Shown here in pieces: positions 8,084 through 57,874 of a stretch of DNA of 64,000 bases. The first letter of the stretch is position 1, and the number at the start of each line of letters is the position of its first letter. This DNA comes from Trypanosoma brucei (Eukaryota): contig CH464492.1 of the NCBI GenBank assembly GCA_000002445.1, positions 160,001-224,000 on the forward strand. Reading direction: 5' to 3'. The position numbers and the translations under genes are program-made. The notes under the pieces were generated by a model. That model was not told the origin of the DNA and searched no databases. It saw only the letters and a list, made by a program, of their open reading frames with translations.

Positions 8084-9703
8084 ATGCCAATGTACCGAAC
8101 ACACGCCAAGATAAGCATGCCAGTGCTTTGCATTTTTTCCGTCGTGCTGCAAGACATAGCCACAGCGGATGTTGAACCCGGCGACAACGGCGGCTACTAC
8201 GCTAGTACGTGTGCAATCCTCAACATGCTGCTCGGAGCGACCGCACAAACTGATAACCAAGGCGAGGTACAAAAGATAGCCACGGAGATTGGGGCAATAA
8301 ATCTTTCTGTGGCGGATGAAGCTTTCAGAAAACTTATAAAACACGATGCTGACTGGGACGGCGCACCAATTAAAGCAGAACACGAATCTAAAGAATACAC
8401 ACCGGACTGGAAAGCCAAGTACCCGTTCTGGCGGGCAGCGAAGCAAAAACTGCACTCAAGTCCGGATCAGTTCAAACAATGGCAGGAAGCCAAGCTAAGT
8501 ACATCAGCGAAACATCAGCTGCGACAACTCGCCGAACAAGCCTACGCAGACTATTCCGAACCGACGCTGCAAGAATTTCCGAGCCTCAAAAGGGAATTGG
8601 AGGAAAGAATCAACGAAGCTGTTTACGGCACAAAGACAAACGACGACGATACACAAACACCGGACGGCAGCAGCAGGGCAACAGTGTGTGGGGCAGCAGA
8701 CGGAAGCGCAGGATCCGGCGCAGGGTCATCTCTCAAACACGACTTACTTTGCCTCTGCGGCGCGGTATCAGGCAACCTTGACAAGGTATGCTGCGCAGAC
8801 TGCGGTGCCCAAGCCACACACTCGTGGGGAGCAGGCACCACAGTACCAACAGCATGGAAGCCAATAAAAGCCAACTGCCCCACACACGCAGGGACATCCG
8901 TATTAACCACAGCAAACCTCCAACAGGCTGTCTCAGCGTTCTACACAACGATCAGCAAAAAGCAGTCGACTACCCACAAAAAGCAGTACATCCTAGGCTT
9001 ACTTTCAGGCGACGGCACAAGCGGATGCGCCGGAACCAGCGCCATCAACGGCGGCGCGTGCGTAATTTACAAACGCCAGACGACACAACGCAAGACAAGC
9101 GTATCAATACCATGGGCAGACAAGGCCCTAACAGCCGCAGAAATCGCCGACAAACTGATAAAAAGGCAGGGCACCATTCAGCGACTGGAGGATAGGCTAC
9201 GGCTTCTAAATGTCTCCGTCACGGCCTTAGTACACAATATCGCCGAACAGGCGTCAGCACAAGCAGCAGCAAGCGACACAAGCGACAATACCTCACCAGG
9301 ACAGCAAACAAAATCGGAATCAGAGTGTAATGCAGCAAAAGACAACCAAAAAGACTGTGATACGTTAAAGGACAAGGGGTGCGTTTTTGACTCTGAAGGA
9401 GAGAAGGGGAAAAAGTGCACATTGAGTGAACAAGCCAAAAAAGCAGCAGAAAACGCAGCTGCGGCAGGAACAGGAGATGGAACAGCAGGAACAACAGATA
9501 AATGTTCTGCTGCACAGACCCTTGACGATTACGCCAAAATACATGGAACAATTCCTCAAGGAAAGAAAGCTTTTTGTAGGTGAAGAAGTGAGAAATATAA
9601 CAAGAATGAAAAGGACGAAGGTAAATTCCGTGATTCCAGTTTCTTTGTAAACAAGAAATTTGTTACAACGGCTGCTGCTCTTGTAAATTTGGTATCATTT
9701 TAA
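8084..9703 (+). pseudogene. VSG, full-length frame with one in-frame TGA (9584-9586) before the C-terminal tail
   Basis: ATG at 8084; signal peptide MPVLCIFSVVL; A-type-looking N-domain; C-terminus CAFCR*RSEKYNKNEKDEGKFRDSSFFVNKKFVTTAAALVNLVSF stays in the same frame after the TGA; 70-bp repeat upstream; 3'UTR ttaacacttttg element ~9795. Confidence 0.85.
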
Positions 9704-9959
9704 GTATCTTTTCTTAATTTTACGAGACTTATGAATTTATAGAAATTGCTATTTTGAAAGAATTCTCTAAATTTACTAAAATTTAATATAATTTAACACT
9801 TTTGTAAAAACATTGAGAAATGTGCAAATATGAAATTTTAGTAAGACGTGTATGATGATGGAAAATGGGAGTAAAAGTGGTATGGTGATAGGATATAAAA
9901 AGTGAATAATATTCTCAGTATTTTTTGTTTATTTCCACTTTTTATGCATATTATCTCTG

Positions 9960-9986
9960 GTTGCAATAATAAAAATAATAAATAAA

Positions 9987-10017
<31 letters not shown>

Positions 10018-10080
10018 TAATAGAAGGTTCTTATGGGTGTGTATATACGAATATGATACTAAGGGTGATGAAGATAGAGT
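9960..10080 (+). repeat. 70-bp repeat with (AAAT)6(AAT)6 microsatellite
   Basis: aataaataaataaataaataaataataataataataataatagaaggttcttatgggtgtgtatatacgaatatgatactaag. Confidence 0.75.
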
Positions 10081-11590: not shown

Positions 11591-13141
11591 AATGCTGGTC
11601 CCGGTGGTGATGTTGCTAGCGTTGTTTACAAGGCCGTCACCATGTAGCTGCACTGAACTGGACAAAGGCGACTTGGCGAAACATTTCACGGCGCTATGCA
11701 CCATTATCAACATAGCGTCAAAGACACATGTTGCACCTGCAGAAGATAGTACGGCTCAGCAAATAGAGGACATTATTTCCGCAGTGAATCTAACTGTAAG
11801 CGAAGGAAACCTTTCGGCAGACGTCATTGATCAAAAAGACAAAAGCAGGGACAGCCTGAGACCGAAATCCAGCGCGGCCTCAGCGACGGACGACGACACA
11901 TGGGATTTCTGGAAACAAGGGGCCAAGAAACTCAAGGAAGAAGAAGAGAAACAGACGTTCAAACCATGGTCGAATGCGAAAGGCAAACATGAAGCAGTAG
12001 CCATAATGAAACAAATTGCCGCAAGTGCACTGCAGCTCAAGAAAATGCGAAACAAACTTAGCCTTGCAGCAAAGTCAGCCGAAATAAGCAACAAGCTTAA
12101 AGAAGCCTTACTCGGCACCGGCACCCTACAAACGCAAACGGCATGGGGAACAGGAGGCGACACAAGAGCGAAGCTGTGTTGCGGAAATACAGCTGCAAAC
12201 ACACAGCTGGCAGGACAAAGCCTCAAGTTCGACATGCTCTGTCTGTGCAGCAAGGGGGCGACCGCAGTGAGCAACGGCGGCAAGGCATGCTGCAACGGAT
12301 GCGAGACGCCGAACACAGCGCTTGCCGCCCAAACCGACATGGCAGCTACGTGGGCAAACCTGAAACAAAAGTGTTCCGAAAAAGTAGCGACGCCACCGCT
12401 ATCAGTACAGGCGATAGAGGCGGCAATAGCGGCGTTTATGACTTTAGCGACGGCCCCGCCAGGAACGCAAAAGCACAGCGTCCATTTCTTCGGAAAAGCG
12501 GACGGAGCCTTTACCGACGACTGCGACGGCGACAAGACCGCCACCAAAGGCCGGGGCGTCCTCTACAAGCAAAGCGACTTCGCAAACGGTGCAGCCGGTC
12601 CCCAGTGGATGCAGGCGCTCCGTCAAGCACAAGTAGCATTAAATGACATGGAGCATATAAGAAAGCAACTACATGGAATTCAAACAAGTGCAATAGCTCT
12701 AAACTCCAGTCTCGGAAGCCTACTAAGCGAATTGTCAAGGTCACAGCAAACATCTGTTCTGCCTAAAAAGGAAGAGGAAGCGCCAGTAAAAGACTGCAAT
12801 ATCCACACAACAAACGCGACCTGCACAGCAGAAAGTAACTGCAACTGGACTAGCACTGATAAAAGCAACGGAGACTTCTGCAGAGCTGCCAATGGAGAAG
12901 CAAACACAGCAACAACAGCAGGTCAAGGAGCTGCAGGAACAACAGCTTCAACTAGATGTGCAAGACACGGCACCGATAAAACCGCTTGTGAAAATGACAA
13001 AACAAGCGAAAACAAAATTGTGCATTTAGAAAGGGGAAAGACAATGAAGACTAGCCGGAAAAAGAGAAGTTCCGAGGCGAAAGTTTTCATGTAAATAAAA
13101 AATTTGCTATGATTGCTTCTTCCTTTGTTAGAATGGTATAA
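11591..13141 (+). pseudogene. VSG, frameshift in the C-terminal GPI-signal region
   Basis: ATG at 11591 (MLVPVVMLLALFT signal). The ORF-track start at 11499 is TTG. Main ORF ends EAKVFM* at 13094. The GPI tail FHVNKKFAMIASSFVRMV* is in the -1 frame and ends at 13141. Confidence 0.8.
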
Positions 13142-13424
13142 TTTTAAGAATTCTTTCTCAATTTGCTCAAAAATTATTTAATTGATGAGATTTTGAGCGA
13201 ATTTGATATGTTTTAATATTTCTGTCAAATCTTTGTTAAAGTTGAAAAGTATGTAATTATGAAATTGTGGTATGAAAGTGGTCTATAGTTGTAACGTAGT
13301 AGAATTACATGGAATGAAAAATGAGTGATAATCCTATTTGTTTTATTTTTTGTCTTGTTTATTTTAAGGATAATATTAGGGTTATAAAATAAACAGTAAT
13401 TGTAATATTAATGATTGTAAGATC

Positions 13425-13510
13425 GCATTAATGATAATAATAATAATAATGATATAACAGTGTTGTAAGTGTGCATATACTAATATTATTATGAGGGTGA
13501 TGGTGGAGAA
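13425..13510 (+). repeat. 70-bp repeat
   Basis: taatgataataataataataatgatataacagtgttgtaagtgtgcatatactaatattattatgagg. Confidence 0.8.
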
Positions 13511-15224: not shown

Positions 15225-16787
15225 ATGAGGAGGCGAATGCAGATGCACGAACCAAAGAGAAGAATCGCTGCTATAATGGTGGTGTTTCTTCTAGATACCC
15301 TCGCAACTGCGCAACCAGCAGACCCCGGAAGCCTAGCAGCGGTCAAAACCACATGCGCCGAAATCTATTTTAACAAGAAATTGGCCGAACACTTAAGGAT
15401 AAATGTCCAAGAATCCCAACAGCGTCTTTCGGACCTCAACACTGAGACGCGCATGTTTTTTCTCGCCGCAACGGCGGCAACGGACACGCAGAGGAAGCTG
15501 CTGTACACAGCCCTCAGCGCAATAGCAGCGACGACGGCAATCAAGCAACAAGCGGCCTTGAAAGAAAAATCAAAAATAATCGAGGATGCGATAGAAGCGC
15601 TTCATAAGCGGAACGGCGTGCTGGGGCAGCTGCTCACTGGAAGGCCGAAGACGATCCAAGCAACAGAGAAGGCACAATGGACAAAAACAAACCAGCGCTG
15701 GCTGAGCGGAAACGGCACAAACGAAGGCAAATGTGTAGCCACGTATAGCGTCACAGCAACAGAAGACAATACCTGCGACGCCAGCGCGGCTTACAAAGAT
15801 GCAATAGACAAGATCAACGATGAAATAGCGGAACTGAAGCACCTAGCACTAACGCCAAACAGTGAACTCAAACCCATGCAGCTTTCATTTGACATCCACA
15901 TGCAAGGCAGCGCCGGAAGCGTCAGTACAGCCGGCGCTAAGCAAGCCGGATACTGTGGAGCAAACGCGGAAACGAAAGGGTCAGTGACTCACGGTGTAGG
16001 AGCAAAGCCTAGTCAATCCCCGGCGGCAATAACGCAGCCAGCCAAACAAGCACTAGGAAAGACAGGACCGGACGACACGAGCTGCGTCGTCAACGACCAG
16101 CCGCTTAAACTAGTAATTTCAGAAAAGACACTGTTAAACAAGGTGTGCGAAGCCAAAAAAGTCCTGATAAAACCAGAGGCGAAAGCAGCAAGTCTGACGC
16201 GCAAGCAAATAGCCAAAGGGTCACCGGCAGCGAAGATAGCATTCCTTTTCACGAAGGGATCGATACCTCTAACGGCAATAGACGGGGACTGGGTAGCCGC
16301 AATAACGGAAGTATACGGACCAGATACAAGCGATATCAACAAGGAGTTCATTGAACCCTTAAAAAATGACAAAATAACGTGCAATGTGGGCTCCAAAACC
16401 ACCGACCCGGACATAGTAGGAGTCTCTAAAACTGCAAATTTTGGTGAAGCAATAGCAGTTGTTTTCTGGAAAGAAAACAGCAGACAACAACAAGCTAAAC
16501 CTAAGACCACTACAGAATCAAAAACTACAGAAAAATGCAAGCCAGACACAGAAGAAAGTAAATACAAAGAGGATTTAGACTACGATTACAAAGACGGAAA
16601 ATGCAAACTTAAAGCGGGAATGAAAGCAGAAGAAAAGAAAGAGGAGAAATGCAAAGATAAGGAAAAGGATGACTGCAAATCTCCAGATTGTAAGTTGTAG
16701 GGCGAAACTTGCAAAGATTCTTCTATTCTAGAAAACAAACACTTCACCATGATGGTTTCTGAATTTACAGTGTTTGTAGTATTTTAA
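15225..16787 (+). pseudogene. VSG with in-frame TAG (16698-16700) inside the CKSPDCKW motif
   Basis: ATG 15225; 491-aa ORF ending CKSPDCKL*; the frame continues GETCKDSSILENKHFTMMVSEFTVFVVF* to 16787; the expected CKSPDCKWEGETCKDSS is changed by two G>T substitutions (TGG>TTG, GAG>TAG). Confidence 0.85.
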
Positions 16788-17572: not shown

Positions 17573-20500
17573 ATTTTTTTAAATTTTTCTTCGTGCCTTC
17601 GTGAGAGTTTCCCCCCACTGGCGCGGCCATCAGCCATAACCGTAGAGCCCTGAGATGCTATTGGTCTGGCGACTGTGGCAGAGTCTCCCTTTTTTATTCA
17701 TCCTAACACACTCTATAATTTTTTGTTGTAGCTCCGCAGTTGAACGGAATACAGCAGATGGGGCGAGAAGCCCCCCACCCTGGACTCTCCAAAAGATGTC
17801 ATTTAGCAATCCTTTTGTTTTGATTTTTGTTATTCGTTTATTATTCTCTCCCCCTCTTTCTGTTTCTGTTGCTTGTTGACTGCATACCCCCTCTGTCTCT
17901 GAGGGTGTCTGGACTATTCTTGCGTCCGGTGCTTTTCCTGCTAGCTCCACACTCGGCAATAAGGGGGGAAGTTGTAGAAGGGAGAGTGGGTTGTATGACT
18001 GTTACATTAGGTGAGGACTTCACCTGCGGCCGGCTCCGTTCAACCGCAATGAGAAACTGCGCCAGCCTTTTAGAAAAACATATATCCTGCACACACACAC
18101 CTTCTACCGCAAACCTGACACGTAACTCCTTCAAACCGGGACAGCTCATCAAGTGCAGCGACGTTTCTTCGCAGTCGCCGCGTTGGCTTGTAACAGCGCG
18201 CTCTACCTTCATACCGTGCATCTTCTTTTGATGTAGGGTGAGGCCAGTTTTGCTAGCACACTGCCTTCCGCATGTCGGGTACACCAACATGGATGCATTT
18301 GTATGCGGGGAATCAGTGGCACACAATTTTGTGCTTTTGCTGCATTTAAGCTCCACTTCCTCACCTTTGTGGAAAGCCTTACAGTGTCAGATGAGGGAGT
18401 CCCTGCAACTGAGCATTTTTTGGCACACACCACACTGCACCTCCCCTTTCCCCGGGACGTCAAGGTTTCCCTCACTGGAACGCTTACGAGGGAATTGCAC
18501 CACCACCACGGTACCGTCCTCCGTCACTATGCTCTTATGTTTGAATTTCTTGTGTAGTGACAGGGAAGAGCATGTACCGAATCTCGCCTCGCACAGGTCA
18601 CATTGAAACGGCAGCTTCCGTGTATCCTGAGAGGCTGGCGCTGCTGGGACGCTACCATCTCCTTGCAATGAGTCTTCGTTTTCTCGCCCCCATTTCACGC
18701 GGCAACTACCACAACCTATGCCATGTATTGTTCTAAGGTGGTGTAATAGTCGGCCTAGCACTGCGAATATGGAGGCACAGATGGTACAATGAAGAACCTG
18801 CGGTCTCATCGGGACTCGTGTGCTCGATGGTAGAGGAACGATCGCCACCACTGGAGGGGGCTCCGGGGGGATGTCCACTGCAGGTGTTGCATCGCCGTAT
18901 TTGATCCTCCGGAGGGCATCAGCTCGCACAAAGCCATGTTTGTTTACCATGTGCGTTACAGCACTCGAGCGGCATTGGTATGTGGCATCACATTCCGTAC
19001 ATTTGGTCAATTCGGAGGTTCTCTGAAGAGTGCGTGTCGCAACAGGTTGTTTGGGTTTGTATTGTTGGTCCTATCGCTGCATGCTGCGGGTTACACCATC
19101 GGCACTGTGGAGGCACACTCGGGTCGATCTTTCGCAACATCCATCCATAGTATCTTGAAGACCTAACCCGAAAGCGTGCCAGTGCTGTTTCTTCTTCCCT
19201 CGTCAGTTCTTCTTTATGTTTTGTTGGAAAGTGGTTGCCCGTGATACCAAACCTATGAGTGTTCTCATGGACTTCTTCCGACCTAAGCACTCGCTTCGCA
19301 TAAGCAATGATGTCGGGGATCCATGTGTCTCGCAACTGTGGTAAATCTGCGGACTTTTTGGCCATTTCATCACAAACCTCATTCCGTTTCACGCCACAAT
19401 GGCCAAACACAAATTGCAGTCGGATGCGTATCTTCCTTCTCTGAACTTGAAGCAGAAGCCTCCATAGTCTCTCAGAATTGGGTCCGTTACGGCTAGGGGC
19501 CTGTCTGCAGTGCTGTTAACATTGACAGCGAGTCAGAGAAGATGGACAACCTGCTCGGTGTGGTTCTGTATGCCGGAAGCCATTTCAGCAGCCGTTGCAG
19601 TCCTATCTCTAATGCTACGCATTCCGCTCTGTAACTGCATGAGAGTTCCCCTGCTCCAGTTTTGGGTGCGCAAATCAGCGTGTTGTTTCTATAGAGCAGG
19701 GCAGCTGCTCCGGACTTCTCACCGAGGGACACGGATCCATCAGTCCACAATTCGTAGTGCTCTCGTCGCGGTGGCTCCTTCCCCCTCCGTGCAAAATGCC
19801 GTTCAATCCACTTTTCGGAAGCCTCCCTTTTGACATTGTTAGAGTCATCAGCGCACACAGGCTTTATCTGCGTGTGAAATAGCGGTCGGCAGCTGTGGCG
19901 GAGCGTCGATGTCTCTAGTGGGTTTTCGCGTGGCTCAATGCGGAGGTGAAGGTAGGACCGCATGATGCGGGAATGTGTGGCTCTGACTGGGTGTTTGCTG
20001 TGATATGCTTCCTCAGCACTGCGCCGCAAACATCCGCCTCGTGACTCACACATCAGCATGAATTTCATGCTGCGCACAAGAGTGGTCGTCTTGAGTGGCA
20101 GGAGGTTTGCTTCCAGCAGACAGTCCTCTTTGCTCGTCCCATGTGGTATGCCAGCTATGATGCGACTGACCTTGTGTTGCGCTGCTGCAAGGAGGTCGCG
20201 ACTTCGTTCCGAAGCGTCCCAGTACCATACCTCAATGCCATACATGGTGTGTGCCTGTACGAGTGCTAGATAAAAAGCTCTCAGTACTTGTCGTCTTGGC
20301 CCCCATGTAGAAGCTGAGATGGCTGCTATCTGCAGTAGTAGGAAGTCCATCTTGCGTCTCGTTTCTGCCGCATGTGTTGCCATCCCTTGCAGACACTGGA
20401 ATGTTACTCCTAGAAGCTTCGGTGTCCTGTCAGCTCCTATTCTTTCGCCGTCCATTGTAATGTAAGGGGGTGGCGCTCTATACACCCGAAGAGTGTGCAC

Positions 20501-22818
20501 TTCGTTTTCGCTACGTTGACAGACATGAAGTACTCTTTTGACCACTGTAACACCACGTTTAGGCCGCATTACAGCGTGTGGTTGATGACATCCCTCTCTG
20601 TGTGCCTCGCAAGTAGCGTCAGGTCATCTGCAAAGAATCCGTGCTGCAGTAACGGCACTTCTGCAAGGCGCTGGCTCAACGAGTTCATGACAATAATGAA
20701 CATGATTGGGCCAAGGACAGTTCCTTGTGGCACTCCTCGCTCAAATGTTCTGCTGCTGGAAAGCTTCTCCTTGAATCTCACTCTGCCAGTTCGGTTACTC
20801 AGAAATGATACACACCACTTCACAATGTGGGGTGATACCTTCATTCTGTGCATTTCCCTCGCAATTTTGTCGTGGTCTACTGTATCGAATGCCTTCTCTT
20901 AGTCGACGAATACAGCACCTGTACGATATTGGTGCGTGGGACGGCAGAGGGCAGCGCGGACGTGCAGGAGGTGTTCGAGCGTTGAGCATCCGGGGCGAAA
21001 GCCTGATTGCTGCGGCGTCAGCTGGGACTCAACAGTGTCTCTAAGTCTCGCGGCAATTATTCGCTCCATGACTTTGCAGAGACAGCTCGTGAGCGTCACT
21101 GGCCTGTAAGAATCGAGGTCCTCCGCCTTTTTTCCGGCCTTCAGGATGGGGATGATAACACCAGTCTTCCATGCAGACGGCACGACTCCCGTTCGTAGGC
21201 TCTCATTGAATAGCCTCAGAACAACATTCAGCGCTGTTCTACCGAGATGTTGCAGTGCCTTGTTGTATAAGCAATCAGGTCCGGCTGCGGATCCACTCGG
21301 TAGCAGTTTGATCGATCTCCGTAGTTCAGCCATCGTGATGGGACTGAACTCACTCGCTATCGTCTTTATGTGTGCCGGTGGGTGTGAGTCGGGGTGCCTT
21401 CTTGCGCAAGACGAGTACAGTTTAATGAACCTCTCAGCTTGACGGTAGTCCGTGATGGCCGCGTTATCAACAAGCACAGCCGGTGTGGTTAGTGGTCGTG
21501 GCGCATATACCTTCTTGACAATGTGCCAACTGCAGCGGTCTGACACCGCAAGTCTGGAGCATAGCGTGCTCCATCTCTTCTTTGTGGTACGGTCCAGAAT
21601 CTGCTTACGCGTGGCTACCAACTTTTCTCTTATGTGGAAAGGTCCTCATCCAGCGATCTCTTCATCGAGTTTTGCGAGCTCAGGTGTCCAATGTGGTGGC
21701 GTTGCTCTGCAGCCACGGGGGACGGAGACCTTCGTCGCAATGCGGATGGCGGAGCTCAATTTCTGTTCCATGGTGTTGACGTTCTTCTCTCTAACAATTT
21801 TCCTGCAGAGCTCGTCAACCTTGAGGCGGAAATTCCTCCAGTCAGCTTTTAGCCATGCGTACATGGGCTTTCGAAGCTGCGGGCAACTCAGTGCATCTGT
21901 GCCGTCTCCAACGATAACGTCGAAAAATATGTGATGGTGATCGCTATCGGGAGAATACAGCGATGTCCACGTACACTATTTAATTCCTTGACAGTGTCAC
22001 ATCAGGGGTGGACTCCCCGTGGTGGCGTGCGTACCTGGTGCACTCACCAGTGTTGCAGACCAGAAACTGGTTGTCAATGCACCACTGTGTGAGGGTTTCA
22101 CCCTTGGTATTTGGTGGGCTCGCGCGATCCCATGCCAGCGCGTGTGCGTTAGCGTCTGCACCGATGAGCTTGGCACCGTCAGTCGTCAGAAGCGTATCTA
22201 GGTCAGTTTCCGTGAAGGTGTGTTTTGGTGGGATGTATGCCGACGTGACAGTCAGCGCCGTTCCACGTGCAAGGTGAATTGTTCCATGCACTTGTTCAAT
22301 GCGACCAACAACGGTCATACCTGTCTCGACTGGTAGGTCCTCCCTCACTAGTATTGATACACCACCTCCTTTGCAGTTACGAGCTATTCCGTGATGTTGG
22401 TAGCCAGCAACGCTAAAGCAAGCCGCCTCTCCAGGCGTCATCCTTGTCTCGCTCAACAGACAAAAGGCGATCCGCTCATCAACAAGGGTTTTGTGGAGTG
22501 CTAATCTCTTTCCTTGAGATAGCCCGGCGGAGTTCCACTGCATCCCGCGCAACGACGGGCCGGGATTCTCTTCCACATCACCGGACAGCAGCATCTTAGT
22601 GCGGATGATACTGCTGATGACACGCTGGCACGTGCCCAGGGACCGACAAATGAAGAACGGTGTCCCAGCAAGACGCTGCTGATCCCTGTGCTGTATGATG
22701 CCGTTGCCGGAGCACAGCATTGTTCCCCATGAAAGGAACGCTGCTGGCTCTTCGCTTCCCCCGATGATACGGGGTACTGGACCCTGGCACCACGTTGAGG
22801 TGGCCGGCATTAGCAGGG
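17573..22818 (-). mobile_element. ingi non-LTR retrotransposon, near full length (~5.25 kb), degenerate with multiple frameshifts
   Basis: The 5' end on the - strand reads ccctgctaatgccggccacctcaacgtggtgccagggtccagtaccccgtatcatcggggg (Pr77-like hallmark shared with L1Tc/ingi/RIME). ORF fragments on - are in ingi order: 2A-like + APE endonuclease (21980-22840), RT (20899-21621; 19493-20853 with FADD motif), RNase H-like (18988-19410), C2H2 zinc fingers (18387-19010; 17841-18356). A poly(A) tail shows as a T-run on + at ~17573-17590. Confidence 0.85.
19493..21621 (-). pseudogene. ingi reverse transcriptase region, split over 3 ORFs
   Basis: VVPSAWKTGVIIPILKAGKK...YRPVTLTSCLCKVMERII, GVPQGTVLGPIMFIIVMN...FFADDLTLL and MYGIEVWYW motifs typical of non-LTR RT; ORFs 20899-21621, 20569-20853 and 19493-20569 are in different frames. 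Confidence 0.75.
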
Positions 22819-22840
22819 AATATAATGCATGGCAAATCAA
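21980..22840 (-). pseudogene. ingi polyprotein N-terminal fragment: 2A-like peptide (DVEENPGP) followed by AP-endonuclease domain
   Basis: LLSGDVEENPGP at ~22555-22578 (- strand), then MQWNSAGLSQGKRLALHKTLV...ILVREDLP...SAYIPP (APE-like); out of frame with the downstream RT. Confidence 0.75.
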
Positions 22841-22849
22841 CGAGAATGC

Positions 22850-23066
22850 AGTCTTTTTAGCACTACCTCAAACTACGTTAACCGAAACAACAACAGGTAA
22901 ATATAAGGGTAAACTGGAGAGGGATTGTAAAAATAGGTGAAAATGGGAAAGTCACTCCTGTAAGGATTTCACTATTATTGTAAATAAAAAATTTGTAACT
23001 AATTGTTTCTTCCTTTATGAGCTTTGTTTTGAAGACAGTATTACATTTGTGATAATTTTTCTATAA
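22850..23066 (+). pseudogene. VSG C-terminal stub (about 50 codons plus 3'UTR) directly abutting the ingi 5' end
   Basis: TTGKYKGKLERDCKNR*KWESHSCKDFTIIVNKKFVTNCFFL aligns to the canonical TTEKCKGKLEKDCKSPDCKWE..CKDSSFLVNKKFALMAAAF; degenerate 16-mer tgataatttttctataacac at ~23050. Confidence 0.65.
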
Positions 23067-35902: not shown

Positions 35903-37429
35903 ATGTCAATAAGCCATGTCCTGTGGTCTACAGCGCTAATAGCGCTAACAAGTGTGAAAACAGCAGATGCCAACATCGACACAGGTGCCAACCGCCGGGA
36001 GTTCGGTGCCATGTGCAACGTGCTCCGGTGGACCTCAACAACATTCACCAACAAAGCAGACGACTGGGACGACGACAAGATTTACAATAGTATAGCTGAC
36101 ATCAACATGACCCTCGCAGAAAAAGAGTGGCGCGCGATGTTCCTTCAGGAAGGCCAAGCGGAGAAATGGCAGTTAAAGCTACCAACTAAGCACGCAGAAA
36201 ATGCCGCTTTCCAAAAAATGTGGGCACTCTGGGCATGCGCTGCCCAGAGAGTAGGATCGGAACGCGGTCTGACGGACAAATTGAAAAAGCTAAAAGCGAA
36301 CGAACTGACCGCAACAGATCTATCTTTGCGTAGGCAAAGAGTGCAACAAATAGCAGACAAAGCCCATGGCATATACTTCGAACTTAAAAAACTCAACAGG
36401 AAAAAACTAAAAGCAACACCGGCAACAATTAAAGCGAAGATATACACGGCGGTACTAGGCAAAGCGGATGCTGTACTAGGAACAGATCCGACGGACGACG
36501 ACTCAATAACGTCAGGCGGAACCTCGGCAGCGACCCGCAGCAACGGCTGTGGGAACAGCAATATAGCAAATCAGCCCGGCAAAAACTTGGGTACCGTGGC
36601 ACTATGCGTATGTGCAAAAGGGGCAAGCGGTACAGCAGTAGACGACGCGTGCTGGAGTGAGACGGCGGCCGAGGTGGCATACCCAACAGCGGCCAGCCAG
36701 GCGAAAACGAAGATACACGAGCTCATTAAAATGTGTGGGACAGCGGCGCACACAAAGCTGACGGCAGACGCAGTAGAAGCTTCCATCAAAGGCCTGACGA
36801 GCATCATGCACACGTCCAGCAGCGGAACCTATATTGGAGAATATCTCGCAACAGGCTGCAACGGAGAAGACAACGGCGTGGTCTGCTTCAAATATGGCAC
36901 TCTGACGACAACGACGAACAGCAACCTCATGACCATCCCGTGGCTGGCCGAGTTGCACCAGCTAAAGCAGGACCTCACAGGTGACGACAACCTGGAGAGA
37001 GCTGGCCAACCGCTAGTCCAACAACTTACTATCCTTGAAGCGGAGGTGAAAGAAATTACAGCAGGTGAGCTCCTGATGAGGCAAGACAGTTTATTCGTAA
37101 ATCAACCAACTCACCCGGCGTCACCAGAAAAAGTAGCTACAGTCGGCGAAGTGTGTAGCAAACACAACGGCAGCAATACAACTTGTCCTCGAGACAAACG
37201 CACGTACGATGAAAAAGAGAATAAATGCAATCCAATAAAACAAGTAGAGGGAGTAACGGCAGAAGGAACAGGAGAGAAAACAACAACAGAGAAATGCAGA
37301 GGGAAATTGGAGAAAGATTGCAAATCTCCGGACTGCAAATGGGAGGAAACAGTATGCAAGGATTCCAGTTTCCTCGTAAACAAGAAATTGGCTCTGATTT
37401 CTACTAATTTTGTGGATTTGATGTTTTAG
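35903..37429 (+). CDS. VSG, apparently intact (508 aa)
   Basis: ATG 35903 (the ORF-track start at 35900 is GTG); signal MSISHVLWSTALIALTSVKTADA; uninterrupted ORF; C-terminus KCRGKLEKDCKSPDCKWEETVCKDSSFLVNKKLALISTNFVDLMF*. Confidence 0.85.
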   Translation: MSISHVLWSTALIALTSVKTADANIDTGANRREFGAMCNVLRWTSTTFTNKADDWDDDKIYNSIADINMTLAEKEWRAMFLQEGQAEKWQLKLPTKHAENAAFQKMWALWACAAQRVGSERGLTDKLKKLKANELTATDLSLRRQRVQQIADKAHGIYFELKKLNRKKLKATPATIKAKIYTAVLGKADAVLGTDPTDDDSITSGGTSAATRSNGCGNSNIANQPGKNLGTVALCVCAKGASGTAVDDACWSETAAEVAYPTAASQAKTKIHELIKMCGTAAHTKLTADAVEASIKGLTSIMHTSSSGTYIGEYLATGCNGEDNGVVCFKYGTLTTTTNSNLMTIPWLAELHQLKQDLTGDDNLERAGQPLVQQLTILEAEVKEITAGELLMRQDSLFVNQPTHPASPEKVATVGEVCSKHNGSNTTCPRDKRTYDEKENKCNPIKQVEGVTAEGTGEKTTTEKCRGKLEKDCKSPDCKWEETVCKDSSFLVNKKLALISTNFVDLMF

Positions 37430-39874: not shown

Positions 39875-41447
39875 ATGAATGCGGAGTGGCACATACAAGG
39901 CTCGAATATATCTTTCTTTTTCTTCCTAGCAGCCGTATCGCACATCGCCATCGACAGCGCCGACAGTCAGTCACCGACAGGTTATGACAAGGCAGGTGAT
40001 AGCGTTTCTGATTTGTGTGGGGAGCTACGGTACAACATGGGCCTAACCAAAATATTCGAAAGTGAAGCAGACAGTATCATTCAACAGGTACAGAAGAGCA
40101 CAGAAGAGGCGGCGGCGTACAGGCTGGCAGCACTAGCACAAAATTCACGCAAAACAAAACTCGGACTCACGGCCCTTGCAATTCGCAAGCAGGAAATACT
40201 GCAAAGCAGGATCGCCAAGGGACTAGAGGCAGCTGCAAAGAAAAGAGAAGCGGCATCCGCTCTTGCAGCACGGCGAGCTCGACTAATATAGCTGCGGAAA
40301 CTGCAGGTCTCTAAATCGCAGCTCGGCAAGGCAAGCCACGAAAGCAACGGCAACACCTACATGAAGGGGATGTAAACAACCGGGATAAAAATGGACTTGA
40401 CCCTCCAGGCAACGGAAGCGGAAAACTGCTCGACAGCGGACCTCAATGACAGCAACTGGCCGAAACAAAGTAAAATAGCACATACAACAGCAACTAAAAT
40501 GAAAATGGTGCCAGACACGGCCTTTGCACAGCCGACTATAAAGCTGCAGGTTGGCATGAAAGGTAACCCAGCTCGAGGCAGCGCGAACAACTACGACACG
40601 CCCGGACTAGCTCTCGATAGCGCGGGGAGCTGCAGCGCACACTGCCTCGGCGCCAAAGCCATACCCACTGCACAACGAAGCCAGACCCCAACTGACCAGG
40701 ATCTTTTCACAGAAGCAACAGCGAGATCAAAATGCAAAACGCACGACACCAACAAGCAATGGTACAGCATATCGGTGGAAGCCACACTAGCAGCCGTATG
40801 CGAAGCGACCACAGCAAACTTCGAACCATCATCCCTTGCTTTAACAAACGACATTAACAGCCTGAAGCAAGATGCCGAGCTAGCGAAACTGCTACTGCTG
40901 CTGCAGGGAAACAATAGCAAAAAATCACTCGAAGCGGCCAGCAAACCAGAAGCAGTAGTGTTAGAATTTCTATGCAGCAATCAACAAGCATTCGACGAAG
41001 CCTTTTTAAAGTTTGCAACCACAAGCGAGCACACATTCAACATCGCTGGGACAGAAATAAAAGGAATTTTGCTCAAAATCGCGCAATGTAAAGACGCCGG
41101 AAAAGTTCTAGCATATTTAACCAACAAAAACACACGGAAAGCAACGGAGATAACATCCAAACCAAGCCAAGAAAAACCAGCCGAAGACAAATGCAAAGCA
41201 ATAGAAGACAAAGAGAAATGCAACAATAAGAATGGGTGTGAATTCAAAGATGGGGAGTGCAAGGCTAAAGAAGATGGAGCTGAAGGAGAACAAAAGAAAG
41301 AGGAGAAATGCAAATGGAAAGAAGAGAAAGATTGTAAATCTCCGGATTGCAAATGGAAGGATGACAGAGTTAAAAGATTACAGCTTTCTTGTCAATAAGA
41401 ACCTTGTTCTGATGACTGCTACCCTTATAGGTTTGGTAGGATTCTAA
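39875..41447 (+). pseudogene. VSG with two in-frame stops (TAG at 40292-40294 and TAA at ~40370) and a frameshifted GPI tail
   Basis: ATG 39875 (MNAEWHIQGSNISFFFFLAAVSHIAIDSA) is in the same frame as ORF 40391-41398; C-terminus CKSPDCKWKDD...; the tail KDYSFLVNKNLVLMTATLIGLVGF* is in another frame and ends at 41447. Confidence 0.8.
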
Positions 41448-43700: not shown

Positions 43701-43887
43701 TTAATAAATTGTAGAAGAGCTATGAAGACGGATACTCAGAGCAAGCACAGGTGAGAGCAAGAAATGTTACATTTTTTGTCTTTGTTGTTGTCTGTAAAAC
43801 AGTAGCTGTGAAGCCCTATAATATAGCTGTAAAAAGCAAATTGTTTCTCCATTAATAGTGTCCGTTGGACATCAAATTTAAGCGCAA

Positions 43888-45474
43888 ATGATTCGACCGA
43901 TCCAAGCCGTTTACGTAGCATCGATAGTGATTGCAGCTGCAGTCTGTCAAAGATCCGCGGAAGCGACTACTGAACCAGGCCCAAACGGCGGTGCATTTTC
44001 ATTACTCTGCACTATCATCAACATGTTAAATGCAGGAACACAGCCGCCTGACACCATCCAAGCAATCGAGCATCTCGCAGCTGAGATCGGTGCCTTATAC
44101 CTTTCTCAAGCGCCGGCGAAATTCTGGGATTCAATAGAGGAGGATAAAACGTGGCAAACCCTAGCAGACACCGAAAAGCCCTCAGCTGACGACGACAAGG
44201 CGACATGGGAAAAGTACTATAACTTCTGGGCAGCCTCAAAGAAGCAGATCGCAAAGAAAAAAGAACAATACGAAACTTGGGGCAAAAAGAATCTTGCAGG
44301 TGACTACCTCTCGGAACTAAAAAAATACGCGGAAATGGCATACAACGCGTATACAAACGCAGAGTTGACAAAGTACGCCACGCTCGAGACCACGAGAGAA
44401 ACGTAAGCCGACTTGGCCTTGTACGGGGCCGCAGGCAAAGACAAGGAAAATACCGACGATGCAGCAGGAACGCGAGAGAACAGCTGTGGCCTCGGAGACG
44501 CAGGGACGAGCAACCAGGCCGGAAAAACGATAAGACGGGACATGGCTTGCCTCTGTGCGAAGGGGACAGGGACAGAAGTCAACAACGTTTGCTGCCGCTA
44601 CTGCGACTACAGCGGCGAGTCGACATGGCGCACAGCCCAGCATGCCAAAGCCAAATTCGAGCACCTCATTACGAAATGCCCAGCTTATGCGCCTACACTG
44701 GAGGTAACTAGCTCTAACCTAAACAACATCTTAGCCAAATTGCATGTCACCATAGGCGGCATTCAAGGAACAACAGCGAAGAAGCCCTATGTCCTCGGGC
44801 ATTTAGACGGGACCGGGAACAACGGTTGCGACGGCAAATCTGAAGGAAACGGCGGTGTATGCGTAATCTACAAAGAGACAGCTGGCGGCACAACCAAACA
44901 TGCCGACATTGCGTGGGAGCAGCCAGCAAAACTAGCGTAGGCCGCGGCCGACAGCATGGAGGCCAACAAGCAGAGATTACTCGAGATGAAGGCAGAACTG
45001 ACACTACTAAATGTCACCGCCGGAACAATCAGCCTCTGGGGCAGTCGGCAGCTCAGTGTTACTAGCACAAACAAAGTTGAGCCGGCCGCCCAATGCAATA
45101 ATCACAAAACAAACAAGACCTGCACAGCAGCTAAGTGCAAATTGGAAGAAAAAGATGGAAAGGGTGAGTGCAAACCTAAAGATGGAGCAGAGCAGAAAAA
45201 AGCAGCAGGAACAGGAGGAGATGGAGCTTCAGGAACAGCAGCTTCAACTGAGTGTGCAAAACACGGGACCAAAACTGAGTGCGATGCTGACAAAAAAGAT
45301 GACAAGCAAAATTGTGCATTTAGGAAGGGAAAAGATAATGAAGATGACAAGGTTACAGAAAAGCGCCGCTCTTCTAGTTTTCTTATCAAGAAGAAAATTG
45401 CTATGATTGCAGCTGCTTTTTGTGAGTGTGGTATTACTTTAACGATTTTTGCTCATTATTATGAAATATTTTAA
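43888..45474 (+). pseudogene. VSG with two in-frame stops (TAA 44404-44406, TAG 44938-44940); same subfamily as the VSG at 8084
   Basis: ATG 43888; ORFs 43888-44406, 44413-44940 and 44956-45474 are all in one frame; N-terminus EPGPNGGAFSLLCTIINML matches EPGDNGGYYASTCAILNML of VSG 8084; C-terminus CAFRKGKDNEDDKVTEKRRSSSFLIKKKIAMIAAAF plus an extended tail. Confidence 0.85.
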
Positions 45475-45744
45475 TTTTTTCTATTTTTTAAGAATTTGCT
45501 GAATTTTATAAAATTTAATATATTTAACCACTTTTGGATAAAAATGTTCAGATTGAATAAATTTTTGATAATTCAAAATTTTTTTAAAAGCTTTTTATGA
45601 TACTGGCATATGGGTGTAAAGTAATATTGTGATAGGGCATAAAAAATGAGTGCTACTATAATTTGTTTTTTTCTATATTTTCTGGATATTAGAAACAATT
45701 TAGGTTTACAATCAAAAAAATGAAGACGGTTAAAGAGGTTATTT

Positions 45745-45900
45745 CGATATTAATAATGATAATGATATGAGAGTGTTGCGAATGTGTATATACGAATATT
45801 ATAATAAGAGCAGTAATAGTAATAATAATAATAATGATGATGATAATAATAATAGAAGAGTGTTGTGAGTGTGTATATACGAATATTATATTAATAGTAG
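45745..45900 (+). repeat. 70-bp repeats, 2 copies
   Basis: gagtgttgcgaatgtgtatatacgaatattataataagagcag...(TAA/TGA)n...agagtgttgtgagtgtgtatatacgaatattatattaatag. Confidence 0.85.
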
Positions 45901-47601
45901 CAGTGAATACTGAATAGGCTGGCAAAGTATATGTATTTCAAACAGTGTAAATGCCGAAATGGGATTAAGTAAGTTGGTATGAAAGATAGTAAAAAAAATA
46001 TTATTAAAGGAAACGTGGATAGAATGAAGAGAAAGAATGAATGAGACCGAATACGCGCAGTTTCAAACACAAACATGACGTGAGGCACCAACTCATGCTA
46101 GGAGATTGTGAGGAGGCCGATTATTAGGAGAAATAGTGCAGTGTACAGGGAAATTGTAGGTTCTACAAGACAATACAAAGGAGAAATACTAGATGAAGTT
46201 GAATATGTGCACAGTTGTCAATATTTTCTCAAGACATACTTGACAAATGCATTAATTTATCACAAAGAACTATTATTGAAACAAACATATCAGCTGCAGA
46301 GAGAACAACTGAAGAACAGTATGTAACTTGTTTAAAAGCTTTTCGAACAGCAAATTTTCCTACTCCTGAGCGGCGATTCCATCAAAAAAGTTATCTAATG
46401 ATTTCGCAATACATTGATACAACAATAAAAGAAAGCTATAAATTCAGAAAATATATCAGCAAATTAGATAAAGGGCAGAAAAGCAAAAATACAGTCACAA
46501 ATTAGAACTTTATTACATTACAAGGTTGTGTAGAGAGAGAATAACTATTAGTATCTCATACATTCAAAAAAAGTGGAAATTTATTAGATCGAAACAAAAA
46601 TTTTGTGGCCTTCTATATGAAAGCATGTAAACGTTTGAAAATGACCTTAAATGATAGATTTAGTATGTTAAAAACTGGGTGAAACCTAACACTATGATTA
46701 TAATTACATTAAATTAGAGATTATAAGCCAGAAGGTAACGTTCATTTCACAACAATATTTCATTTACTTTACGGCTTTATGCATCATTAAGTCTAGAACT
46801 GAGCGACACAAAAGAGGGATACAAGTAAAAAGCACGATTAGATTTTATGTGAAGACAACCAGGCCCATAAAAAAGGTTAAAACTGATCTCCAAAATGGAA
46901 AATCAACTCAAACAGGGCACAAAGCCGGTCGAACATTCAATCAACTAGCAGTTTTTCAGACGAATTCAGTGACACGCCCACCAGCGGGCGTGTCAGACCT
47001 GGGGCGCGAGATTATAAACGCGGCAAATTTAGCACGTAAGTTACCCACCTTTACTCAAAAAGTGGCGGAAAATGCACAGCTAGCATGGGAACTGGTTAAT
47101 ATAAGGGTGTTTCTGGCAGGCTTTCGACTGAGAGAAATAACAGAATTCTAGACGCCGACAGGCAATGAATATGTAATTTTCCCTTGGGCCTGCGGCCGTC
47201 ACCCACAGAAGAAGTGCGTAAAATATTTTTATGGCTGTAGTTTTAACAAGTTATGAAGCACATGTCTTTCGCTTTGGCTTCCGCCGTGATTTCTTACAGT
47301 AAAGACCTGCTTTGAAAAAGTGTAACGAATCCATATGGAGTCACTCAAGCAAACAAAGAAGCGGAAATAGGAACCTAAGCAAACGCAACTGGGAAAGAGT
47401 CTGGTAGCGCTACCTACACTGTGTGAAGTCTGTAAATATGTCATTTTTCACAACGAATAAAGCAAAGCTTCAATAAAACCCCTGTCGGCAAACAAGCGCT
47501 CCCTAAACCACTAGAAGCCACCCTTCTCCACCAGCAAAATTTTCTATTGTGAGCAGTGGCAAGCAACCAACCACTGACCAAGTATTTAAAGATCACTGGT
47601 A

Positions 47602-49014
47602 ATGGCCAAAGTAGCGCAGTGGCACTTACTACTCGCCTTCATCCTCACTGTGGCCAAAGCAGACGATAAAAAACCAGCCGATGTGGCAACGGACGCGTGC
47701 AAACTAGGTCGAGTTCTACAGGCCATAGCGACGCAACTGGAAGGTAAACTGCAACCTGCGGCAGCAACTATATCAGGCAAGCGGCCGCTAATAGCCCGGC
47801 TAATGGATGCCACCGGGCAGGGCTCAGCGGAAATACACCTGCTGGCGGCTCCAATCCTACTGAAGCTAACAACGGCTGTCACGACCGCCGAAAGCAAATT
47901 GAAAGCGCTTACAGCAAAAACAACAGCACTAGCAACGAAGTTGAGGGTGGAGGCAGTCAAAGCCCCCGCAATAACGGAAGCCGTTTCCGTTCAGGTTAAA
48001 ACCACGGACACAGGCGACACCAACGGCACCACGCTGAACCAGGTCGACAATATTCAGTTTACAGAGATAAAGACAGGGACGACGGCCTGCCCGGGCACAC
48101 TCACACAGGCAGCAGAACACGCCGCCGACTGGATTCAGCCGGAAAACCTTTAAACCATGGTTTTTTACAGGCTAAAGATCAACGAACAAACAGGTTTAGC
48201 GAGGCTGCCAACCCTTGGCAAAGGGGCCGGTGGAGCTTGTACGAACGGCGCAGCAAGCGTAGCGAACGGTGGGATAACAGGCACAAACCTTTGCATCGCG
48301 GGGGGCCCAGTGCTTGTGGCCGATAAGCGAACTCACGCGGCGGCCCACAACAGTAACTACATAGCACAGCCAGTGACCGATATGGAGAGAGAAGCGGATC
48401 CAGATAAAAGCGAGCAGGCGCTTGCACAGGAGCTGCTGGACGTCGCCCAGGAATGGCACACGGCGAACTTTAACTTTGATGCACTAGAGATAAGCAGCTA
48501 CACTACCGATGACACCTTTAAAGCGGCAGTAGCAGCAGCCGTAGGCAACCTCAAAGAGCCGTACGACTCGGCAAAACATGGGGAGATCATTTCGAGATTA
48601 ATATCCAACAAATATGGCGACAGCAAGGAGACATTTAAAAATAAATTCTGGGAGCCGCTCAGCAAACTGCCAGTACCCAAAGTAGCACTAGGTACTGATA
48701 GCGATGGCACCGTCGCGCAAATATCCGACACAGCAACAACAGCGAAGGTGTTGCTACACGCAGCAAAGCAGAGGCAAAGTAAAACAGAAAAAAGAGCAGC
48801 CAATGCAGCAGGAAAAAACAGAATAAGAGAAAGACGGGATAAAGCAACCGCAGCTGAGTGCAAAGCCACTGAGGAGGGTAAATGTGACGAGGAGAAATGC
48901 ACTTGGGATAAGGACAAGAAGGAGTTCAAAGTTTAAAAAGGAGCAGAAGTTATTTGTTATGTGATGAATACGCCTCTTTTTCTTGCATTTTTGCTTCTAA
49001 AAATAACCTTTTAA
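47602..49014 (+). pseudogene. VSG (B-type-like N-domain) with two in-frame TAA stops (48154-48156; 48934-48936)
   Basis: ATG 47602, signal MAKVAQWHLLLAFILTVAKA; ORF 48157-48936 is in the same frame; after the second TAA the frame continues KGAEVICYVMNTPLFLAFLLLKITF* (GPI-type tail); the cysteine-rich C-domain AAECKATEEGKCDEEKCTWDKDKK is shorter and less canonical than the others. Confidence 0.65.
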
Positions 49015-57853: not shown

Positions 57854-57874
57854 ATTTAACATTTTCGTCAAAAG

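What the first reader, a model, noticed from the sequence alone, without database searches (positions are those of the whole stretch)
8084..49014. Nonsense-only VSG pseudogenes predominate: whole-length frames interrupted by only one or two stop codons
VSG 8084 (TGA), 15225 (TAG), 24696 (TAG at codon 36) and 32592 (TAA plus a tail shift) each carry a single in-frame stop. VSG 43888 and 47602 carry two each, and 39875 carries two plus a tail shift. In all of these a single frame otherwise stays open across ~450-520 codons. Several stops are G>T changes of canonical residues (CKSPDCKWEGE > CKL*GE). Long open frames with point nonsense mutations fit recent pseudogenisation, or maintenance of frame integrity because these copies act as donors for segmental or mosaic gene conversion. 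Only VSG 11591, 50577 and the two - strand VSGs are frameshift-ridden.
Basis: partly seen in the sequence, partly recalled or inferred. Interest (0 to 1): 0.5.

Follow-up and report, generated by a model that had tools for sequence, protein, structure and literature searches.

The report
Lightly damaged silent trypanosome coat genes
This is an ordinary silent array of Trypanosoma brucei coat-protein (VSG) genes, most of them lightly damaged pseudogenes of the already well-described kind. The damage is about half stop codons and half frameshifts, and it sits mostly at the dispensable 3' end.

Summary
The window is a subtelomeric VSG array of T. brucei brucei TREU927. It holds 13 full-length VSG cassettes, one C-terminal fragment and two ingi-type retroelements.

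The headline that nonsense-only pseudogenes predominate is overstated:
- "VSG 11591" starts at 11592. Its frame is open for 500 codons and it carries one tail frameshift and one stop.
- VSG 43888 has a missed +1 insertion in its GPI signal.
- The tally over 11 pseudogenes is 14 stops and 12 frameshifts. Only 4 pseudogenes are nonsense-only.

Two patterns stand out:
- 12 of 26 lesions lie in the last 56 codons, which are 11% of coding length.
- Tail lesions tend to be shared with relatives in other strains, while N-terminal-domain lesions are mostly private.

The sharing means those tail lesions are real and predate the strain split.

A neutral simulation predicts about 3.6 to 7 new stops for the observed amino-acid divergence. 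Four are seen, so there is no significant excess of open frame.

This fits neutral decay of silent copies plus the known tolerance of 3' damage through "3' donation" and mosaic gene conversion. It is a known phenomenon and of low interest.

The parts
8084..9703 (+). B-type VSG pseudogene, nonsense only. TGA at 9581-9583 (codon 500 of 539) replaces a Trp codon. Two C-terminal-domain cysteines are lost by missense.
   Evidence: P0019 (VSG 1125.261) reads W at that position. P0020 (VSG 1125.4202, 93% identical) ends at the same residue.
11592..13141 (+). B-type VSG pseudogene. The frame is open from 11592 to 13094. There is a -1 frameshift near 13010 in an A-rich stretch, and a TAG at 13052 in the restored tail frame.
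Evidence: One blastp HSP to P0055 covers residues 4-499.
15225..16787 (+). A-type VSG pseudogene, nonsense only. TAG at 16698 (codon 492 of 520), CKW-E > CKL-*.
   Evidence: P0022 and P0023 (92% and 85% identical) end at the same residue. P0024 (Lister 427 VSG 1059) ends one codon earlier. Differences from relatives fall in mosaic patches.
22818..23060 (+). VSG fragment consisting of C-terminal domain only, abutting the ingi element.
   Evidence: tblastn hits to many VSG C-terminal domains.
24696..26171 (+). A-type VSG pseudogene, nonsense only. TAG at 24801 (codon 36). The tail, the GPI signal and the exact 3'UTR 16-mer are intact.
   Evidence: P0032 and P0035 are 100% identical ORFs, and P0035 starts at the codon after the stop.
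28470..29975 (+). Intact VSG of 501 aa, the only apparently functional copy in the window.
   Evidence: Exact match to XP_828104.1, 'VSG, putative', TREU927.
32592..34142 (+). B-type VSG pseudogene. TAA at 32733 (codon 48). A shift in the last codons removes the normal stop.
   Evidence: P0033 (VSG 1125.2895, 86% identical) aligns without gaps over residues 126-416.
35903..37429 (+). Uninterrupted VSG of 508 aa, annotated 'atypical'.
   Evidence: 100% match to an NCBI TREU927 protein named 'VSG, atypical'. Pfam finds VSG_B and the C-terminal domain.
39875..41444 (+). A-type VSG pseudogene. TAG at 40289, TAA at 40373, and a 1-nt shift near 41366 in the tail.
   Evidence: One HSP to P0082 covers residues 15-463.
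43888..45474 (+). B-type VSG pseudogene. TAA at 44404 (from Gln), TAG at 44938, and a +1 T insertion in the GPI signal near 45415-45420.
   Evidence: P0050 (VSG 1125.5447) reads Q at codon 173 and ends at codon 350. P0180 (VSG 1125.153) has the same frameshifted tail.
47602..49014 (+). A-type VSG pseudogene. TAA at 48151 and TAA at 48934, both from Lys codons. The normal stop is lost, giving a 4-codon extension. No frameshift.
   Evidence: P0070 (Lister 427 VSG 1305) reads K at codon 184. P0036 (VSG 1125.5491) starts at M186 and reads K at codon 445.
50577..52053 (+). B-type VSG pseudogene with three frameshifts (near 50715, 51044 and 51975) and no in-frame stop.
   Evidence: The reconstructed protein aligns in one HSP to P0043 and P0054.
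57935..59338 (-). A-type VSG pseudogene. One frameshift lies between about 58985 and 59040 and one near 58091 in the tail. TGA at 58021. The normal stop is lost.
   Evidence: P0034 (VSG 1125.4914, 84% identical) stays in frame across the first shift and shares the out-of-frame tail ending.
61441..62996 (-). B-type VSG pseudogene. Frameshifts just after the ATG, near 62652 and near 61612. TAA at 62069 and TAG at 61817.
   Evidence: P0037 (VSG 1125.2839, 90% identical) reads Y and S at the two stops and shares the tail frameshift.
17800..22840 (-). ingi-type non-LTR retrotransposon interrupting the array.
   Evidence: ORFs. Pfam RVT_1, Exo_endo_phos_2 and C2H2 zinc finger.

Best explanation
The region is a typical silent subtelomeric VSG array of Trypanosoma brucei brucei TREU927.

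Each cassette has this layout:
- a 70-bp-repeat core 1.2-2.2 kb upstream
- a coding region of about 1.5 kb
- a conserved C-terminal tail
- a 3'UTR 16-mer

The cassettes are transcriptionally silent, so individual copies decay by ordinary mutation. That gives about one lesion per gene body, with stops and frameshifts in roughly equal numbers.

Lesions are about seven times denser in the last 56 codons (C-terminal domain end and GPI signal), and the decay extends into the 3'UTR 16-mer. When an array VSG is copied into an expression site, the downstream conversion boundary often lies inside the C-terminal domain. The resident 3' end is then kept ('3' donation'). 3' damage is therefore invisible and persists for a long time. 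Damage in the antigenic N-terminal domain disables whole-domain donation, and those copies can contribute only short mosaic patches.

Shown here:
- identity of the locus
- the lesion catalogue
- the tail bias
- sharing of tail lesions between strains
- mosaic patchwork among relatives
- a nonsense count compatible with neutrality

Inferred: tolerance through 3' donation, rather than a raised mutation rate in the tail, causes the tail bias.
For: Identity:
- 100% matches to TREU927 VSG proteins on a 286-kb contig.
- Pfam VSG_B, Trypan_glycop and Trypan_glycop_C.
- 70-bp-repeat core: 9 hits against 0.4 expected.
- 16-mer: 13 hits against 1.4 expected, only 2 of them exact.

Lesions:
- 14 stops and 12 frameshifts in 6,517 codons.
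- Body lesions per gene are Poisson-like: 14 over 13 genes, 5 genes with none (my arithmetic on the list).

Tail bias:
- 12 of 26 lesions fall in the last 56 codons, which are 11% of length (binomial P=8e-6; threshold-free KS P=7e-4).
- Target size explains little: p_stop is 1.1-1.2x higher and homopolymer runs 1.6x denser in the tail. After correction P=0.02 for stops and 0.0015 for frameshifts.

Shared tail lesions:
- 8084 stop (1125.4202)
- 15225 stop (1125.4267 and ARB50647)
- 43888 GPI frameshift (1125.153)
- tail frameshift of the 62996 VSG (1125.2839)
- tail frameshift of the 59338 VSG (1125.4914)
- 47602 stop loss (1125.5491)

Private body lesions:
- 43888 codon 173
- 62996 VSG codons 308 and 392
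- first frameshift of the 59338 VSG

Other support:
- Neutral simulation gives 3.6-7.0 expected new stops against 4 observed.
- Differences from relatives fall in mosaic patches.
- At DNA level only tails and 3' flanks are similar between unrelated VSGs in the window.

Literature:
- About two-thirds of array VSGs are pseudogenes with stops, frameshifts or deletions (PMC3467770), and only 4.5% are intact (PMC1868767).
[quoted passage not shown] 42% of N-terminal-domain donors were pseudogenes (PMC3708902).
- Mosaic patches of about 45 bp are templated from family members (PMC13233330).
Against: - No DNA of the relatives was available. dN/dS and true neutral divergence could not be computed, and the neutral test uses amino-acid differences as a proxy with an assumed split between lineages.
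- The relatives come from ORF-based VSG catalogues (ORFs of at least 250 aa). Copies sharing mid-gene stops are under-represented, which inflates the 'body lesions are private' pattern.
- The shared-versus-private contrast is marginal. My count is 5 of 6 tail against 1-2 of 7 body lesions, Fisher P about 0.03-0.1, computed by hand and not with a tool.
- The 56-codon tail boundary was chosen after seeing the data.
- The sample is 13 genes from one array.
- An elevated error rate at recombination endpoints in the conserved tail is not excluded.
Confidence: 0.85

Rival explanations
1. Active maintenance of reading-frame integrity. Second-order selection, or repair by gene conversion from intact relatives, keeps N-terminal-domain frames open because these copies serve as donors. 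The 3' tail is left to decay.
For: - Lesion density in the body is about 7x lower than in the tail.
- Old, strain-shared lesions are mostly in tails, and body lesions are mostly private.
- In the 15225 family, three or four ORFs that are 76-92% identical all keep about 490 codons open despite 36-116 amino-acid differences.
- All conserved N-terminal-domain cysteines are retained in the six B-type copies.
- Missense divergence in the tails of 8084 against P0019 and of 43888 against P0180 is not higher than in the body (my reading).
Against: - The unbiased test on window copies shows no significant deficit of new stops relative to missense change: 4 observed against 3.6-7.0 expected.
- Relatives are ascertained as long ORFs.
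- Patch repair of about 45 bp does not need an open donor frame (PMC13233330).
- This model predicts no preference for stops over frameshifts, and none is seen (14 against 12).
Confidence: 0.35
2. The tail is a mutational and recombinational hot spot. The conserved 3' end is the homology used to end gene conversions. Imprecise junctions and slippage in A- and T-runs create frameshifts there, and the conserved TGG (Trp) codon is nonsense-prone.
For: - Tails and 3' flanks are the only DNA similar between unrelated VSGs.
- Tail frameshifts lie in A- or T-rich runs.
- Homopolymer runs of 4 or more are 1.6x denser in the tail.
- Nonsense recurs at the C-terminal-domain Trp codon in 8084/1125.4202, Lister 427 VSG 1059 and 1125.2895.
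Against: - Target-size correction leaves a significant excess.
- Missense divergence in the tail is not elevated in the two families where it can be read.
- Each tail lesion in the window is different, so a single defective tail has not spread.
Confidence: 0.3
3. The stops and shifts are sequencing or assembly errors in otherwise intact genes.
For: None found. Single-base homopolymer errors could in principle produce the tail shifts.
Against: ORFs from other strains end or shift at the identical position for at least six lesions. The named sources are listed. TREU927 annotation itself gives protein entries only to 28470 and 35903 among the ORFs looked up.
Confidence: 0.03

Closest known systems
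Silent subtelomeric VSG archive of Trypanosoma brucei (full-length pseudogene class of the TREU927 annotation and VSGdb)
   Same: - Same organism and strain.
- Same cassette anatomy: 70-bp repeat, A- or B-type N-terminal domain, C-terminal domain, GPI signal, 16-mer.
- Same mix found here: 1 intact, 1 atypical, 11 pseudogenes and 1 fragment. Published figures are about 4.5% intact and about two-thirds pseudogenes with stops and/or frameshifts (PMC1868767, PMC3467770).
   Different: Nothing categorical. The lesion load in this array is light (at most 5 per gene) and biased to the tail. That is a quantitative description, not a new kind.
3' donation and mosaic (segmental) VSG gene conversion (Hall et al. 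2013, PMC3708902; PMC13233330)
   Same: This work explains why copies with damaged C-terminal domains or GPI signals remain usable, and why relatives differ in patches. Such patches are seen here between 8084 and 1125.4202 and within the 15225 family.
   Different: Use of these particular cassettes as donors was not tested here. Only the footprint of past conversions is seen.
Functional pseudogene donors in other antigenic-variation systems (Anaplasma marginale msp2, as cited in PMC3467770; Borrelia vlsE silent cassettes and chicken Ig V pseudogenes, from my own knowledge)
   Same: Silent, non-expressible copies act as templates for segmental conversion into one expression site.
   Different: Those donors are truncated cassettes that lack ends by design. 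The copies here are full-length genes with point lesions, numbering in the thousands per genome.

Membership tests
Trypanosoma brucei VSG gene | N-terminal domain of type A (PF00913) or type B (PF13206) | tested here: met
   VSG_B E-values run from 1e-50 to 1e-73 for 8084, 32592, 35903 and 43888. Trypan_glycop hits 47602. The other A-type copies are supported by 28-93% identical named VSGs.
Trypanosoma brucei VSG gene | Cysteine-rich C-terminal domain (PF10659) followed by a hydrophobic GPI signal | tested here: met
   Trypan_glycop_C hits 6 of 9 copies. The remaining copies show the CKSPDCKW...DSSFLVNKK or GSNSFLI tails once stops and shifts are bridged.
Trypanosoma brucei VSG gene | Cassette flanks: 70-bp repeat upstream and conserved 16-mer in the 3'UTR | tested here: met
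   70-bp core: 9 hits against 0.4 expected. 16-mer with up to 3 mismatches: 13 hits against 1.4 expected, placed after nearly every VSG but mostly degenerate.
VSG full-length pseudogene (VSGdb/GeneDB class: includes frameshifts and/or stop codons) | Full-length VSG homology interrupted by at least one in-frame stop or frameshift | tested here: met
   11 of 13 full-length copies qualify.
   Only 8084, 15225, 24696 and 47602 qualify, which is 4 of 11. 32592, 39875, 43888 and 11592 also carry tail frameshifts.
Mosaic / 3'-donation donor | Documented contribution of the copy to an expressed VSG | not testable with these tools
   This needs expressed-VSG cDNA data such as Table S1 of PMC3708902, matched by gene ID. 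Only patchwork similarity to relatives was seen.

The most novel reading that the evidence does not exclude
VSG pseudogenes decay 'tail first'. The C-terminal-domain end, the GPI signal and the 3'UTR 16-mer accumulate lesions that persist across strains. N-terminal-domain reading frames are kept open about 7-fold better than neutral, by second-order selection or conversion-mediated repair. If so, most annotated 'pseudogenes' would be functional N-terminal-domain cassettes rather than decaying genes.
Probability: 0.35. Interest if true: 0.35.

Novelty: already known. Interest (0 to 1): 0.15.

Why it matters
The finding re-describes a textbook feature of African trypanosome antigenic variation: most silent VSGs are pseudogenes, usable through segmental conversion.

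The added value is quantitative:
- Stops do not outnumber frameshifts.
- The stop count matches neutral expectation.
- Lesions concentrate in the 3' tail that 3' donation replaces.

A genome-wide version of the tail-versus-body and shared-versus-private comparison could measure how much of the "pseudogene" archive is effectively functional as a source of N-terminal domains. That is a refinement of existing models, not a new mechanism.

Tried and rejected
- **Codon composition.** I tested whether VSG codon usage makes these genes unusually nonsense-prone. It does not. The share of substitutions that create a stop is 0.039-0.044, the same as for uniform codon usage and for the ingi ORFs.
- **G>T signature.** Rejected. 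The inferred ancestral codons give a mixture of change types.
- **Exact look-ups for genomic context.** The look-up of encoding contigs found nothing for 28470, P0001 or P0020. No DNA of relatives could be obtained, so no dN/dS was computed.
- **Profile searches with A1 and A2.** They returned only relatives of the first sequence in each alignment.
- **Alignment A4.** An alignment of 17 fragments was too scrambled to use.
- **Alignment A5.** It worked.
- **Literature.** Marcello & Barry 2007 (Genome Res) could not be read; it is not held.
None were found where relatives exist. There are zero gaps against P0019 and P0020 for 8084, and only rare in-frame gaps elsewhere. For the N-terminal 270 codons of 24696 only the off-frame stop-density argument is available.

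Full report
**What the window is**

The ORF at 35903-37429 is 100% identical to an NCBI protein named [quoted passage not shown]. The ORF at 28470-29975 is exactly XP_828104.1, "VSG, putative", from the same strain. Both are on record with a 286,308-bp contig.

Pfam finds VSG_B, Trypan_glycop (A-type) and Trypan_glycop_C in the conceptual translations. tblastn and six-frame reading map the following:
- 13 full-length VSG cassettes, eleven on the + strand and two on the - strand
- a fragment consisting of C-terminal domain only, at 22818-23060

An ingi-type retrotransposon lies at about 17.8-22.8 kb on the minus strand. It has reverse transcriptase, AP endonuclease and C2H2 fingers. A degenerate ingi-like element lies at about 52.2-57.9 kb.

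The 70-bp-repeat core GTTGTGAGTGTG occurs 9 times against 0.4 expected, each 1.2-2.2 kb upstream of a VSG. The 3'UTR 16-mer occurs 13 times with up to 3 mismatches against 1.4 expected, just downstream of nearly every VSG. This is a standard silent subtelomeric VSG array.

**Checking the observation**

Each of those frames is otherwise open for 466-539 codons. In-frame stop density is 14 per 6,517 codons. The other two frames carry 0.02-0.09 stops per codon, so the open frames are far beyond chance.

Corrections:
1. "VSG 11591" is an off-by-one error. The ATG is at 11592 and the frame is open to 13094. The only lesions are a -1 shift near 13010 in an A-rich stretch and a TAG at 13052 in the restored tail frame. 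It is not frameshift-ridden.
2. VSG 43888 has a +1 T in its GPI signal. Removing one T restores ...AAAFVSVVLL-stop.
3. VSG 47602 has lost its natural stop.
4. The "frameshift-ridden" genes carry two or three shifts each.

The full tally:

| Category | Count |
|---|---|
| Pseudogenes | 11 |
| In-frame stops | 14 |
| Frameshifts | 12 |
| Nonsense-only pseudogenes (8084, 15225, 24696, 47602) | 4 |
| Intact (28470) | 1 |
| "Atypical" (35903) | 1 |

**Relatives and what they show**

Three word-indexed searches and one exhaustive profile search gave close relatives for seven of the eleven pseudogenes (followed by local BLAST and MAFFT). Most are ORFs from the EATRO1125 and Lister 427 "VSGnomes" (names). 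The EATRO1125 set is an ORF catalogue with a 250-aa minimum (PMC9765701).

| Window lesion | What the relatives show |
|---|---|
| 8084, TGA at 9581 | VSG 1125.261 reads Trp there (TGG>TGA). VSG 1125.4202 (93% identical) ends at exactly that residue. |
| 15225, TAG at 16698 | 1125.4267 and ARB50647 end at the same residue. Lister 427 VSG 1059 ends one codon earlier. |
| 43888, stop at codon 173 | Gln in both relatives, so the stop is private. |
| 43888, stop at codon 351 | 1125.5447 ends at codon 350, so the stop is shared. |
| 43888, GPI frameshift | 1125.153 has the same shifted tail. |
| 47602, both stops | Lys in relatives (AAA>TAA). 1125.5491 starts right after the first stop and also lacks the normal stop. 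|
| 62996 VSG, both stops | Tyr and Ser in 1125.2839, so both are private. |
| 62996 VSG, tail frameshift | Shared with 1125.2839. |
| 59338 VSG, first frameshift | Absent from 1125.4914, so it is private. |
| 59338 VSG, tail frameshift | Shared with 1125.4914. |

At least six lesions recur at identical positions in independent sequences. This makes sequencing error very unlikely and shows that those lesions predate the strain split.

Differences between relatives come in patches. Between 8084 and 1125.4202 there are 4 differences in the first 300 residues and more than 25 in residues 303-409. In the 15225 family the patches are complementary. This is the footprint of segmental gene conversion.

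**Is there more open frame than neutral decay predicts?**

The fraction of random substitutions that create a stop in these frames is 0.039-0.044. That is no different from uniform codon usage, so composition neither inflates nor deflates nonsense.

I mutated each window copy in silico (kappa=2) until it reached a set fraction of the amino-acid differences from its closest relative.

| Share of differences placed on the window lineage | Simulated new stops | Observed private stops |
|---|---|---|
| Half | 7.0 +/- 2.7 | 4 (P of 4 or fewer = 0.18) |
| Quarter | 3.6 | 4 |

Outgroup polarisation for 8084 suggests the share is nearer a quarter. There is thus no significant excess of open frame.

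Body lesions per gene (0,0,0,1,0,1,0,2,2,1,2,1,4) look Poisson with mean about 1.1 (my arithmetic). The stop-to-frameshift ratio of 14:12 implies frameshifting indels at about 3% of the substitution rate, which is unremarkable.

**The pattern that is non-random**

Twelve of 26 lesions fall in the last 56 codons, which are 11% of coding length (binomial P=8e-6; threshold-free KS P=7e-4). Ten of the 11 pseudogenes have such a lesion.

Mutational target differences are small. The stop-creating fraction is 1.1-1.2x higher in the tail and homopolymer runs are 1.6x denser. The excess remains after correcting for them (P=0.02 for stops, 0.0015 for frameshifts).

The decay continues into the 3'UTR. 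The 16-mer is exact after only two VSGs and carries two or more mismatches after most. C-terminal-domain cysteines are also lost by missense in 8084 and 15225.

Tail lesions are mostly shared with relatives (5 of 6 that can be evaluated). Body lesions are mostly private (5 of 7). This contrast is marginal statistically and is biased by the ORF-based nature of the relatives.

**Mechanism**

The literature on this same strain explains the pattern.
- About two-thirds of array VSGs are pseudogenes with stops, frameshifts or deletions (PMC3467770).
- Only 4.5% are annotated intact (PMC1868767).
- 42% of N-terminal-domain donors were pseudogenes (PMC3708902).
- Mosaic formation is short-patch (about 45 bp) templated repair from family members (PMC13233330).

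The window's own DNA agrees. Only tails and 3' flanks are similar between unrelated VSGs, and that similarity is the homology used for the downstream conversion boundary.

Under this mechanism a tail lesion is harmless. A body lesion of either kind blocks whole-domain donation but not patch donation. Donor function therefore gives no reason for stops to be preferred over frameshifts, and none is observed.

**Rivals**

- *Active maintenance of N-terminal-domain frames* is compatible with the 7-fold difference in lesion density and with the long-open 15225 family. It is not demanded by the nonsense/missense test.
- *A tail hot spot* (slippage in A/T runs, the nonsense-prone conserved Trp codon, sloppy conversion endpoints) probably contributes. 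Missense divergence in the two readable tails is not elevated, which argues against it as the whole explanation.
- *Sequencing error* is effectively excluded for the shared lesions.

**Verdict**

Its headline is overstated, and one gene was misread by one base. The biology is the well-known state of the T. brucei silent VSG archive. Novelty: already known. Interest is low. The modest new angle is the tail-first, strain-shared decay, which deserves a genome-wide test rather than a claim.

Noticed in passing
window 17800-22840 (-) and 22818-23060 (+): A near-complete ingi-type non-LTR retrotransposon (reverse transcriptase, AP endonuclease, C2H2 fingers) directly abuts a VSG fragment that has only a C-terminal domain. 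This suggests insertion into, or truncation of, a former VSG cassette. No N-terminal part was detected on the other side.
   Followed up: partly
window 52200-57900 (-): Degenerate ingi-like ORFs (endonuclease- and RT-like peptides with no significant Pfam hits) lie between the last + strand VSG and the two - strand VSGs. They mark the point where the array changes orientation.
   Followed up: no
window 6790-7735 and 42601-43545 (+): A 955-bp element duplicated at 79% identity sits upstream of VSG 8084 and VSG 43888, which are related B-type genes (about 31% aa identity). It has a weak glycosyltransferase-like hit (GT_PLOD) below the Pfam cut-off. It is probably a decayed passenger gene that was duplicated together with the cassette.
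   Followed up: partly
window 9784, 13204, 26225, 30062, 34166, 37504, 41511, 45516, 49099, 52117 (+); 57890, 61379 or 61349 (-): The VSG 3'UTR 16-mer TGATATATTTTAACAC follows nearly every cassette. It is exact only after 24696 and the minus-strand 59338 VSG. The intact 28470 has 1 mismatch and most others have 2-3. No copy was found after 15225.
   Followed up: partly
window 9581 (VSG 8084); relatives P0020, P0024, P0033: Premature stops recur at or next to the conserved C-terminal-domain Trp codon (CKW/CRW) in independent VSG families and strains. TGG is the most nonsense-prone codon.
   Followed up: partly
window 9530-9650 and 16560-16620: Conserved C-terminal-domain cysteines are replaced by Tyr or Arg in 8084 (compared with 1125.261) and by Tyr twice in 15225 (compared with 1125.4267 and Lister 427 VSG 1059). 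These C-terminal domains are decaying by missense as well as nonsense.
   Followed up: partly
window 12990-13020 and 61600-61640 (-): VSG 11592 and the minus-strand 62996 VSG have independent frameshifts. Both lie within about 20 codons upstream of the same conserved 'DKQNCAFRKGKDNE' tail block, in a stretch rich in A-runs. In 43888 the block is in frame.
   Followed up: partly
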